Shown: positions 5,872-6,975, numbered from the stretch's first letter. The stretch is 64,000 nt of DNA from the human T2T-CHM13v2.0 reference genome, Homo sapiens (GCA_009914755.4 CP068257.2:7616001-7680000), one strand, 5' to 3'. Notes: generated from the letters alone by a model not told the origin. A program made the numbers and translations.

Positions 5872-6180
5872 CTGAACCTGACCCTGATCCCTAACCCCTG
5901 ACCCTGATCCCTAACCCCTGAACCTGACCACTAACCCCTGACCCTAACCCTAACCCCTAACCCTAACCCTTAACCGTAACCCCTAAGCCTAACCCCTAAC
6001 CACAACCCTCACCCTCACACTAATCCAACCCTAACCCCTTATCCCTAACCCCTAACCTCTCTTAACCTCTAACTCTAAACGTTGTCTCTTAACTCCTAAC
6101 TCTGACCCCAACCCCTATCTCCAACCCCTAACCCTAAACTTAACCCCTAACCCCTAACCCTAACACCAACCTTAACCCTA
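5872..6180 (-). repeat. Degenerate interstitial telomere-type repeat; (CCCTAA)n on + strand, i.e. (TTAGGG)n on - strand
   Basis: ccctgaccctgatccctaacccctgaccctaaccctaacccctaaccctaaccctta... runs for about 50 hexamer variants. Confidence 0.9.
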
Positions 6181-6559
6181 GGTTCTTTACTACGTTTGTA
6201 CTATGTCAATGTTGATTATTATGATCTCTGTCTTAGGACTGCATAGCAGCAAGGGGATTGCGGATCTTATATTAATATTTTTGTATTGAGGCAGTGCATT
6301 AGCATTACAGGTGCTTGTTACATGAGCAATGGGGGTGTCATATTTTGGGTGTCATGTCTGCATTAGGAATGCTGCATTTGTCTTCCGAGGCTGCGGTGTG
6401 GATCTCGCACTGCGGCTGCCTTGGCTTGGCTGGGGAGAACCTCGGTTGGCAGGATTCAGAGGGGCTTTTGGTTTCCCTTTTCCACACTGAGCCCTTCTAA
6501 CTGGTCTCTGACCCTGATTATTCAGGGCTGCAAAAGGGAAGGATTTTATTCACCGTCTA

Positions 6560-6975
6560 TGCGGTCCCGAGTTGTCCCAAAGCGAGGCAGTGCCCCAAAG
6601 GTCTGTGCTGAGGAGAACGCTGCTCTGCCTTAGCGGTGTCCCCCGGGTCTGTGCTGAGCAGAACGCAGCTCCGCCCTCGCGGTGCCCCCGGCCCGCCTGG
6701 GTCTGTGCTGAGGAGAACACTGCTCCGCCTTCGCTGTATCTCTGAAGTCTGTGCAGAGGAGAACTCAGCTCCGCCCTGGCGATGCTCTCCTTGTCTGTGC
6801 TGGGAAGAACGCAGCTCCGCCCTCGCAAAGGCGCACAGCGCCGGCGCAGGAGCAGAGAGGCCCACAGCGCTGGCGAAAGGCGCAGAGAGGCCCACAGCGC
6901 CGGGGCAGGCGCAGAGAGGCCCACAGCGCCGGCGCAGGCGCAGAGAGGCCCACAGCGCCGGCGCAGACGCAGAGA
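6560..6975 (+). repeat. TAR1-like subtelomeric repeat (telomere-associated repeat 1)
   Basis: Tandem motifs ggtctgtgctgaggagaacgc(a/t)gctccgcc and ggcgcaggcgcagagaggcccacagcgccggcgcagg closely resemble the TAR1 segment found just proximal to human terminal (CCCTAA)n arrays, in the same orientation. Identification is from recall, not a database search. Confidence 0.6.

What the first reader, a model, noticed from the sequence alone, without database searches (positions are those of the whole stretch)
5872..6975. Internal telomere-type array plus TAR1 fused to a truncated L1: relic of a chromosome end or telomere-capture junction
About 310 bp of degenerate (CCCTAA)n is followed on the right, in the native p-arm-terminus orientation, by TAR1-like sequence. 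On the left it is not followed by a chromosome end. It joins a point inside L1 ORF2 (~aa 1060), not the L1 3' end. That junction is what a telomere-to-break fusion, telomere healing and later capture, or a subtelomeric duplicon boundary would leave. Heavy decay of the hexamers (ccctga, ccctaacccc, cttaacc) argues the event is old.
Basis: partly seen in the sequence, partly recalled or inferred. Interest (0 to 1): 0.6.

Follow-up and report, generated by a model that had tools for sequence, protein, structure and literature searches.

The report
Old chromosome-end relic copied by duplication
This is an internal stretch of degenerate telomere repeats with its native telomere-adjacent (TERRA-promoter-type) sequence, joined to a broken L1; the same junction occurs in at least 13 slightly different copies, so it belongs to a family of primate segmental duplications that has already been described and is not a one-off event.

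Summary
A 312-bp C-strand telomere-like array (5869-6180) abuts an old L1 cut at ORF2 residue ~1037, not ~1060. To its right lies sequence 83-85% identical to genuine human telomere-adjacent DNA, but only the telomere-proximal part: pre-tel, 37-bp-type repeats and 29-bp repeats (6321-6978). The 61-bp repeats and the rest of TAR1 are absent. A 140-bp extra segment (6181-6320) sits between the array and that sequence.

The junction is neither unique nor an artefact. Twelve independent human-contaminant metagenome contigs span it, and nine of them aligned base by base show the identical breakpoint. They are 97.2-99.6% identical to each other and 97.7-99.0% to the window. Two further contigs carry the same array and subterminal block without the L1. 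Their array continues about 283 bp further and ends in clean (CCCTAA)n at the contig end.

The junction therefore formed once, most likely when an eroded chromosome end was joined to a break inside L1. It was then spread by segmental duplication. Orientation excludes telomerase healing of the L1 end. The hexamer "decay" is mostly the native variant-repeat pattern and does not date the event.

The class is known: internal telomere-like tracts at duplicon boundaries (Ambrosini 2007), and 66 such tracts next to TERRA-like promoters in the complete human genome assembly T2T-CHM13 (Santagostino 2025). Interest is low.

The parts
3371..4949 (+). Old L1, ORF2 part (5' portion of the broken element)
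   Evidence: blastn against the in-window younger L1: ref 51837-53377, 69.6% identity.
4950..5122 (+). Alu right-arm fragment with A-tail, inserted in the L1; shared by the paralogues
   Evidence: Read directly from the sequence. Matches Alu copies elsewhere in the window. Contig alignments run through it.
5126..5868 (+). Old L1 ORF2, ending at residue ~1037 of 1275; no 3' end and no poly(A)
   Evidence: phmmer against PDB L1 ORF2p 8uw3/9k6g: query 2-155 aligns to 883-1037, E 8e-54. blastn ref 53364-54099, 71.3%. Homology ends at tggga 5864-5868.
5868..5869 (.). L1|telomere-array junction, identical in all L1-bearing paralogues; 1-2 nt (A/GA) of possible microhomology
   Evidence: Alignment A1 of the window with 8 L1-bearing contigs...AGAGTGGGA|CCCCTGA.... 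Comparison with other L1 copies.
5869..6180 (+). Degenerate C-strand telomere array (the G-strand points left): 16 CCCTAA, 7 CCCCTAA, 6 CCCTGA, 2 CCCTCA, 1 CCCCAA and others
6181..6320 (+). AT-rich 140-bp segment between the array and the pre-tel homology. Present in all window-type copies and absent from canonical TAR1 ends. Possibly the 'spacer' of Santagostino et al.; that identification was not tested.
   Evidence: paper description.
6321..6599 (+). Pre-tel-like unique sequence
   Evidence: Local alignment to L012 152-~420; homology starts exactly at L012's array boundary.
6600..6826 (+). 37-bp-type repeat tract (Tandem Repeats Finder period 46/100). [quoted passage not shown]
   Evidence: alignment to L012 421-660; repeat order.
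6829..6978 (+). 29-bp repeats, 5.1 copies, unit AGGCCCACAGCGCCGGCGCAGGCGCAGAG. This is the TERRA core-promoter repeat type; the canonical CGCG is CACA here.
   Evidence: Its 24-mer is shared with canonical ends and retrieved 46 human-derived contigs. Alignment.
6979..10300 (+). 200-230-bp tandem repeats that replace the 61-bp repeats and the rest of TAR1 in this family; interrupted by (AT)n at 8522-8721
   Evidence: Present after the 29-bp repeats in window-type contigs, including L024 and L044. No similarity to L012 beyond position 722.

Best explanation
The window holds one copy of a multi-copy primate segmental-duplication module. Its core is a fossil chromosome end. Reading the minus strand right to left, the order is: subterminal block (200-bp repeats, 29-bp repeats, 37-bp-type repeats, pre-tel, 140-bp spacer-like piece), then the variant-rich proximal part of its own telomere.

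In a single ancestral event, this end was joined to a DNA end created by a break inside an already resident, decayed L1, at ORF2 residue ~1037. At that moment the telomere was worn down or broken into its variant-repeat zone. The join used 0-2 nt of overlap, as expected for end joining when a chromosome tip is translocated onto another end. This internalised the array.

The composite L1|array|subterminal block was later copied many times by segmental duplication. The window's copy was inherited in that way.

Shown: the anatomy, the orientation, the homology to real telomere-adjacent DNA, the identity of the junction across copies, and the existence of L1-free copies with a longer array.

Inferred: the joining mechanism, which side was 'added', and any present-day activity. 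Possible activities are leftward TERRA-like transcription from the 29-bp repeats through the array, and binding of telomere-repeat proteins.
For: 1. Native arrangement. The homology to canonical telomere-adjacent sequence begins exactly where that sequence meets its telomere array (L012 152 aligns to window 6321) and runs through the 37- and 29-bp repeats at 83-85%.
2. Orientation. The array is C-rich on the strand where the L1 is sense, so the telomere belongs to the right-hand side.
3. One event, many copies. Twelve contigs span the L1|array join; the nine of them aligned base by base carry the identical junction. These twelve are 97.2-99.6% identical to each other and 97.7-99.0% to the window, and no two are identical.
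4. Ancestral state. L024 and L044 have the same array, spacer, pre-tel, 37/29 repeats and 200-bp repeats at 95-97%, but no L1. Their array continues ~283 bp with more variant repeats and ends in (CCCTAA)8-9 at the contig end.
5. The missing L1 3' part is not in the 58 kb to the right.
6. Mosaic behaviour typical of duplicons. Some paralogues leave the window sequence at ~6866 or ~6523 for unrelated DNA.
7. Literature. Internal (TTAGGG)n-like tracts of 150-823 bp containing TGAGGG, TCAGGG and TTGGGG sit at duplicon boundaries next to subterminal duplicons, explained by translocation of chromosome tips (PMC2323237). In T2T-CHM13, 66 interstitial telomeric sequences (ITSs) are adjacent to TERRA-like promoters, 55 of them lack the 61-bp repeat, and 105 of 106 interstitial promoters lie in segmental duplications (10.1101/2025.05.15.654290).
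Against: - The chromosomal position of the window is unknown, so I cannot say whether this copy is subtelomeric, pericentromeric or interstitial.
- The reference contigs are short, low-coverage metagenome assemblies of contaminating human DNA. They could be chimeras of paralogues, which would blur the copy counts and divergences.
- L024 and L044 are nested among the L1-bearing copies in a poorly resolved tree, not basal to them. Direction (L1 added versus L1 lost) therefore rests on the extra variant repeats, not on phylogeny.
- The names pre-tel, 37 and spacer are assigned by position and by alignment to one canonical contig, not by alignment to the published units.
- End joining is inferred from a 0-2 nt overlap only.
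Confidence: 0.75

Rival explanations
1. Endonuclease-independent L1 retrotransposition onto an uncapped telomere. The G-strand 3' end of a deprotected chromosome end primed reverse transcription of an L1 RNA at an internal site. This would leave a 3'-truncated L1 without poly(A), fused in sense orientation to (CCCTAA)n. The product was later internalised and duplicated.
For: The geometry is exactly what this mechanism predicts: L1 sense strand, 3'-truncated at ORF2 ~1037, no poly(A), directly followed by the C-strand array and its subtelomere. Such events are documented in cultured DNA-PKcs-deficient cells (Morrish et al. 2007, as reviewed in PMC4700185).
Against: - The orientation match has a 50% prior under random joining.
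- The L1 is as decayed as the surrounding ancient L1 fragments: ~70% identity to the younger in-window L1, against 82% for a middle-aged copy. It has many stops and frameshifts and carries an old Alu fragment.
- It lies nested next to another old L1 piece, as expected for resident L1-rich DNA.
- There is no primer-template complementarity beyond 0-2 nt.
- The L1 subfamily could not be determined here.
Confidence: 0.07
2. A terminal chromosome fragment (telomere plus subtelomere) was captured into an interstitial double-strand break inside one L1. The block would then be an insertion flanked by the two halves of that L1.
For: The L1 is cut internally. Santagostino et al. propose recombination between subtelomeric and interstitial sites for this ITS class.
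Against: No matching L1 remainder (ORF2 1038-1275 plus 3' UTR) lies in the 58 kb to the right. The only near-abutting candidate, at 39.84-40.27 kb, is the continuation of a different old L1 (37750-38455) that itself spans the break coordinate. The fragment could still be longer than the window.
Confidence: 0.12
3. Telomerase-made array: de novo telomere addition (healing) at the L1 break, or a short telomeric insertion during double-strand-break repair.
For: A telomere-like array abuts a broken sequence.
Against: - Healing would put (TTAGGG)n 3' of the L1 sense strand; the window has (CCCTAA)n.
- The array is 312 bp and rich in variants.
- It is followed by sequence that natively borders telomeres, not by the continuation of the L1.
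- The same variant pattern exists in L1-free copies.
Confidence: 0.01
4. Assembly artefact: a genuine chromosome end with an L1 wrongly joined to it.
For: Telomeric and subtelomeric repeats are prone to misassembly.
Against: The identical junction appears in the nine L1-bearing contigs aligned, which come from independent metagenome assemblies of different samples.
Confidence: 0.01

Closest known systems
Interstitial telomeric sequences flanked by TERRA-like promoters lacking the 61-bp repeat ('type K'; Santagostino, Nergadze, Giulotto et al., bioRxiv 10.1101/2025.05.15.654290)
   Same: The ITS is a few hundred bp long and directly adjacent to pre-tel, 37-bp and 29-bp repeats. The 61-bp repeats are absent. 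It is a member of a large segmental-duplication family, for which those authors propose descent from subtelomeric promoters. The organisation also matches their 7q/12q subtelomere class: 29 + 37 + pre-tel + spacer.
   Different: I could not check that this window is one of their 66 loci, because no supplementary tables are held. In what I read and word-searched of the paper, I found no mention of the L1 breakpoint on the far side of the ITS.
[quoted passage not shown] 2007, PMC2323237; model of Linardopoulou et al. 2005, cited there)
   Same: The size range (up to 823 bp), the degenerate composition with TGAGGG/TCAGGG/TTGGGG, the adjacency to 'subterminal' duplicons, and co-location with a change of duplicon.
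   Different: Whether this copy lies in a subtelomere, and whether its G-strand points to the nearest telomere, is unknown. Many relatives of this family are pericentromeric or on acrocentric short arms.
Canonical TAR1 / 61-29-37 TERRA promoter at chromosome ends (e.g. contig L012, which continues into DDX11L-like sequence)
   Same: Pre-tel, 37-bp and 29-bp repeats are in the same order and orientation relative to the array, at 83-85% identity. The region still looks like a CpG island (GC 62.5%, CpG o/e 0.67).
   Different: There are no 61-bp repeats and no distal TAR1 (L012 723-1287). A 140-bp segment is added next to the array. The 29-bp unit carries CACA for CGCG. CpG o/e is lower than canonical (0.67 against 0.93).
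2q13-2q14 ancestral telomere-telomere fusion
   Same: Internalised telomere repeats flanked by TAR1-type sequence inside segmental duplications (PMC12926204).
   Different: The fusion site has two head-to-head arrays, each with its own TAR1. Here there is one array in one orientation, joined to an L1.
Endonuclease-independent L1 insertions at dysfunctional telomeres (Morrish et al. 2007)
   Same: A 3'-truncated sense L1 fused to the C-strand of telomere repeats.
   Different: Those are fresh insertions in cultured mutant cells. Here the L1 looks much older than a contemporaneous insertion would, and no further hallmark can be tested.

Membership tests
Internal (TTAGGG)n-like island at a duplicon boundary (subtelomeric-type ITS) | Array of one hundred to several hundred bp of degenerate telomere repeats, including proximal-telomere variants | tested here: met
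   312 bp; 16 CCCTAA, 6 CCCTGA, 2 CCCTCA, 1 CCCCAA, 7 CCCCTAA.
Internal (TTAGGG)n-like island at a duplicon boundary (subtelomeric-type ITS) | One flank is sequence that elsewhere lies next to a terminal array, in the native orientation | tested here: met
   Window 6321-6891 aligns to L012 152-722 and starts at L012's array boundary. L024 and L044 have the same block behind an array that ends in clean repeats.
Internal (TTAGGG)n-like island at a duplicon boundary (subtelomeric-type ITS) | The other flank is unrelated DNA, i.e. a change of duplicon at the array | tested here: met
   Truncated L1 on the left. Paralogues exist with and without it.
Internal (TTAGGG)n-like island at a duplicon boundary (subtelomeric-type ITS) | Located in a subtelomere with the G-strand pointing to the telomere | not testable with these tools
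   No reference-genome mapping is available.
TAR1 / TERRA promoter (61-29like-29-37-pre-tel) | 29-bp repeats | tested here: met
   5.1 copies at 6829-6978, 90% matches. The 24-mer is shared with canonical ends.
TAR1 / TERRA promoter (61-29like-29-37-pre-tel) | 37-bp repeat tract and pre-tel between the 29-bp repeats and the telomere array | tested here: met
   Alignment to L012 152-660 at ~83-85%. The names are assigned by position, following.
TAR1 / TERRA promoter (61-29like-29-37-pre-tel) | 61-bp repeats and the remaining distal TAR1 sequence | tested here: not met
   No homology to L012 723-1287 in the window or in any window-type contig. 200-bp repeats follow instead.
TAR1 / TERRA promoter (61-29like-29-37-pre-tel) | Alignment to the Repbase/Dfam TAR1 consensus or to the published Xq units | not testable with these tools
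   No repeat library is available. Canonical contig L012 was used as a surrogate.
TAR1 / TERRA promoter (61-29like-29-37-pre-tel) | Promoter activity: transcription toward the array | not testable with these tools
   Only CpG statistics could be computed: GC 62.5%, o/e 0.67.
Type K interstitial TERRA-like promoter flanking an ITS (Santagostino 2025) | ITS adjacent; 29 and 37 repeats present; 61 absent; lies in a segmental duplication | tested here: met
   Identity with one of their listed loci was not testable.
Telomere-telomere fusion ITS (2q13 type) | Two arrays head to head | tested here: not met
   Only the C-strand orientation is present. The window has 5 scattered TTAGGG and no cluster.
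Short ITS inserted by telomerase at a repaired break | Short, near-perfect repeats between flanks that are contiguous in relatives | tested here: not met
   The array is 312 bp and degenerate. The flanks are an L1 and a subterminal block, not one interrupted sequence.
Endonuclease-independent L1 insertion at a telomere | L1 sense strand 3'-truncated, no poly(A), joined to the C-strand of the array | tested here: met
Endonuclease-independent L1 insertion at a telomere | L1 no older than the junction (a subfamily active at the time) | tested here: inconclusive
   The L1 is ~70% identical to a younger L1 and heavily disrupted, which argues against this. Neither the subfamily nor the junction date could be fixed.
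TELO_Comp composite (Hoyt et al., T2T repeats) | 49-bp 'ajax' satellite array | tested here: not met
   The ajax consensus is unrelated to the window's 48-bp unit.

The most novel reading that the evidence does not exclude
The junction is a germline fossil of L1 reverse transcription primed by an uncapped telomere (endonuclease-independent retrotransposition, so far seen only in mutant cultured cells). It was later internalised and amplified to dozens of copies in ape genomes.
Probability: 0.07. Interest if true: 0.55.

Novelty: already known. Interest (0 to 1): 0.15.

Why it matters
Such relics show how chromosome ends are rebuilt. An eroded telomere is joined to other DNA, and the product then spreads by duplication. 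Internal telomere tracts with a TERRA-type promoter are reported to be transcribed and to bind telomere proteins, and they mark duplication-rich, rearrangement-prone regions. This copy adds nothing new in kind. The one detail I did not find in the papers I read is the exact partner of the old telomere: an L1 cut at ORF2 residue ~1037. The junction sequence could serve as a marker to count and date the whole duplication family in complete ape genomes.

Tried and rejected
1. TELO_Comp idea. The window's 48-bp minisatellite is not the 49-bp ajax satellite.

2. A '34-kb block inserted into one L1'. An L1 fragment at 39.84-40.27 kb starts only ~35 bp after the break coordinate. However, it continues an independent old L1 at 37750-38455 that spans the break coordinate. 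Rejected.

3. L1 remainder at 13.8 kb. Only the last ~20 codons are present and at higher identity, so it is a different element.

4. Locating the window.
- No gene with the 913-aa ORF product is on record.
- The protein search gave only a marmoset prediction and contaminant contigs.
- Pfam found nothing.
- The mir-1299 hit is a one-mismatch relative of the mature miRNA as I remember it, so even chromosome 9 is only a lead.

5. A scan of genome contigs for the 29-bp-repeat 24-mer found nothing.

6. tRNA-likeness of the 200-bp repeats: none.

7. Species. The window is 97.7-99.0% identical to human-derived paralogues, which differ as much among themselves. Human or another great ape cannot be told apart here.

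8. Rooted tree to decide whether the L1-free copies are ancestral: unresolved.

9. The supplementary tables of the key preprint are not held.

Full report
**What is in the sequence**

The window is primate DNA, with Alu and L1 elements throughout.

- Positions 5869-6180 carry a 312-bp array of telomere-type repeats written as the C-strand. Tandem Repeats Finder reports period 6, 47.7 copies and 66% matches.
- Sixteen of the window's 27 exact CCCTAA lie in this array, and there is no cluster of TTAGGG anywhere in the window.
- The 12-mer CCCTAACCCTAA with up to one mismatch occurs seven times, all here, against 0.38 expected.
- The array holds 147 C and 13 G.
- It is the only telomere-like array in the 64 kb.

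**Left flank**

Translating the last 470 bp before the array and searching solved structures gives human L1 ORF2p (8uw3, 9k6g; E about 8e-54). The alignment ends at residue 1036-1037 of 1275.

L1 homology stops at 'tggga' (5864-5868), where other L1 copies continue 'gaaaat' and the window continues 'cccctgaacc'. At most one or two bases (A or GA) could belong to both partners.

The element runs from 3371 to 5868 on the + strand. It is interrupted by an Alu right-arm fragment at 4950-5122. It is old: about 70% identical to the younger, nearly full-length L1 at 49-55 kb, whereas a middle-aged L1 at 17-18.6 kb is 82% identical to that same reference. Its frame is broken many times.

**Right flank and the TAR1 question**

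No repeat library was available, so I obtained independent reference sequences. A 24-mer from the 29-bp repeat, scanned against public metagenome contigs, retrieved 46 contigs. By their content and sample names they are contaminating human DNA. They fall into two families.

*Family A* is the canonical chromosome-end sequence. An example is L012: a telomere-like array, then unique sequence, then repeats of about 46 bp, then 29-bp repeats, then more GC-rich sequence, then sequence I recognise from memory as DDX11L-like.

*Family B* is the window's type. Window 6321-6891 aligns to L012 152-722 at 83-85%. The alignment begins exactly at the base where L012's array ends.

Santagostino et al. give the order of elements from the telomere inward as pre-tel, 37-bp repeats, 29-bp repeats, 29-like repeats, 61-bp repeats. 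By that order:

- 6321-6599 is pre-tel-like.
- 6600-6826 is the 37-bp-type tract.
- 6829-6978 is the 29-bp repeats (5.1 copies).

After the 29-bp repeats the two families part. Family B has 200-230-bp tandem repeats (6979-10300) in place of the 61-bp repeats and the rest of TAR1 (L012 723-1287), for which no homology exists in any family B sequence. Window 6181-6320, an AT-rich 140 bp next to the array, has no counterpart in family A.

The region still has CpG-island statistics (GC 62.5%, CpG observed/expected 0.67), below the canonical 0.93. "TAR1-like" is therefore right only for the telomere-proximal 650 bp or so.

**The junction is shared by many copies**

- Twelve contigs span the L1|array join.
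- In a 1.4-kb alignment they are 97.7-99.0% identical to the window and 97.2-99.6% to each other, gaps excluded. No two are identical.
- A column-by-column alignment of the window with eight L1-bearing contigs shows the identical breakpoint ...AGAGTGGGA|CCCCTGA... in every one.

The join therefore arose once and was then copied. It is not an assembly artefact. There is no reason to think it formed at the window's own locus.

The copies behave as duplicon mosaics. One sub-family leaves the window's sequence inside the first 29-bp repeat (~6866) for unrelated unique DNA. Another joins other DNA at ~6523.

At the usual neutral rate (my own knowledge), divergence of 0.4-2.8% between copies suggests spread over roughly the last 2-14 million years. 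The join itself must be at least that old. CpG richness, gene conversion and possible chimeric contigs make this estimate rough.

**Copies without the L1**

L024 and L044 carry the same array, 140-bp piece, pre-tel, 37/29 repeats and 200-bp repeats at 95-97%. At the point where the window has the L1, their array continues for about 283 bp. That stretch holds further variant repeats, followed by eight or nine clean CCCTAA at the contig end.

This is what a real chromosome end looks like in a short-read assembly, although a longer internal array cannot be excluded.

Two consequences follow:

1. The degenerate pattern of the window's array is almost base-for-base the pattern in these copies. It is therefore the native variant-rich proximal telomere, not decay accumulated after internalisation. 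CCCTGA, CCCTCA and CCCCAA are TCAGGG, TGAGGG and TTGGGG, the variants that Ambrosini et al. name as typical of proximal telomeres and of internal islands.
2. The L1 was joined inside the variant zone. The telomere was therefore very short or broken at the time.

A neighbour-joining tree places L024 and L044 among the L1-bearing copies, not outside them, with little resolution. The direction of change rests on the extra variant repeats, which telomerase would not add.

**Mechanism**

The orientation decides part of the question. On the strand where the L1 is sense, the repeats read CCCTAA. On the other strand the order is subterminal block, (TTAGGG)n, L1 antisense. The telomere therefore belongs to the subterminal block. 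De novo telomere addition to the broken L1 would give the opposite orientation and is excluded. A short telomerase insertion at a repaired break is excluded by the length, the degeneracy and the unrelated flanks.

The best-supported reading is that an eroded or uncapped chromosome end was joined to a double-strand break inside a resident L1, with 0-2 nt of overlap. This is the translocation of chromosome tips proposed for subtelomeric patchworks. Segmental duplication followed.

I looked for the alternative in which a terminal fragment is inserted into one L1. The missing 3' part of the L1 is not in the 58 kb to the right. The one fragment that nearly abuts in L1 coordinates (39.84-40.27 kb) continues a different old L1 (37750-38455) that itself spans the break coordinate.

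A third possibility has exactly the observed geometry: L1 reverse transcription primed by an uncapped telomere, as seen in DNA-PKcs-deficient cells. The apparent age of the L1 and its setting among other old L1 pieces argue against it. I give it about 7%.

**Comparison with what is known**

Ambrosini et al. 2007 describe internal (TTAGGG)n-like tracts. Most are 150-200 bp and the longest is 823 bp. They contain the same variant motifs, lie at duplicon boundaries, and are often next to "subterminal" duplicons, including at non-subtelomeric sites.

Santagostino et al. 2025 analysed T2T-CHM13v2.0 and found the following:

- 66 interstitial telomeric sequences lie next to TERRA-promoter-like sequence.
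- 55 of them lack the 61-bp repeat.
- 105 of 106 interstitial promoters lie in annotated segmental duplications.
- The loci concentrate on acrocentric short arms and in 1q21.1, 2p11.2, 9p11.2, 9q21.11 and 16p11.2.
- Two subtelomeres (7q, 12q) have the organisation 29 + 37 + pre-tel + spacer.
- Transcripts arise from many such internal sites.

The window fits this class in every feature I could test. The class, its origin from chromosome ends and its spread by duplication are therefore already described. The L1 partner at ORF2 ~1037 is a detail I did not find in the papers I read.

It is not like the 2q13 fusion, which has two head-to-head arrays.

**Location and species**

I could not place the window.

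- The only Rfam hit, mir-1299, lies in a 48-bp minisatellite at 26461-26543. MIR1299 is annotated on human chromosome 9. However, the mature sequence as I remember it is present only with one mismatch.
- The long ORF nearby gave no informative match.
- Whether this copy is subtelomeric or pericentromeric, and whether it is human or another ape, remains open.

**Verdict**

It is a known kind of feature. It is interesting mainly as a clean example and as a source of a diagnostic junction sequence.

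Noticed in passing
window 24122-28359 (hit at 26461-26543, - strand): A 48-bp minisatellite of ~88 copies carries the window's only Rfam gathering-level hit, mir-1299 (93.3 bits against a cut-off of 89). The hairpin is made of two neighbouring repeat units. The mature miR-1299 as I remember it occurs three times, each with one mismatch, so this looks like a paralogue or orthologue of the chromosome 9 gene and not the gene itself.
   Followed up: partly
window 10786-13527 (-), repeats 11264-12819; inverted partial copy 15676-16468 (+): A 913-aa serine/proline-rich ORF runs through 10.6 copies of a 147-bp (49-aa) repeat. 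It has no Pfam family. A marmoset predicted protein is 53% identical over 84% of the ORF. An inverted repeat (12986-13522 / 15921-16457) is 97% complementary across a 2.4-kb spacer.
   Followed up: partly
protein P0005: A protein annotated as Plasmodium ovale wallikeri 'hypothetical protein POVWA2_070090 / PIR superfamily' is 95% identical to the window's primate ORF. It is almost certainly human DNA contamination annotated as a parasite gene.
   Followed up: no
window 6979-10300, with (AT)n at 8522-8721: Tandem repeats of 200-230 bp, each with an A-run and a GGTTCGAGCCC-like motif, follow the 29-bp repeats in every window-type copy, including the telomere-ended contigs. ARAGORN finds no tRNA. 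I could not name the repeat.
   Followed up: partly
window 2000-3130: A GC-rich island (67.5% GC, CpG o/e 0.51) lies between old L1 pieces. It has long overlapping ORFs on both strands and internally repeated peptide motifs. Its nature was not determined.
   Followed up: no
window 49300-55500: A nearly full-length, younger L1 on the + strand, with a 219-aa ORF1 and ORF2 in three long pieces. It was used here as the internal L1 reference.
   Followed up: partly
loci L014, L020, L046 (~window 6866) and L013, L029 (~window 6523): Some paralogues leave the window's sequence inside the first 29-bp repeat, or inside the pre-tel region, for unrelated DNA. These are further duplicon breakpoints within the TERRA-promoter-like block.
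   Followed up: partly
window 57700-58579, 35782-36025, 29569-30177: Further minisatellites: 35-bp unit x 25 copies; 62-bp unit x 3.9 copies at 96% matches; 157-bp and 100-bp units. The window is unusually rich in tandem repeats.
   Followed up: no
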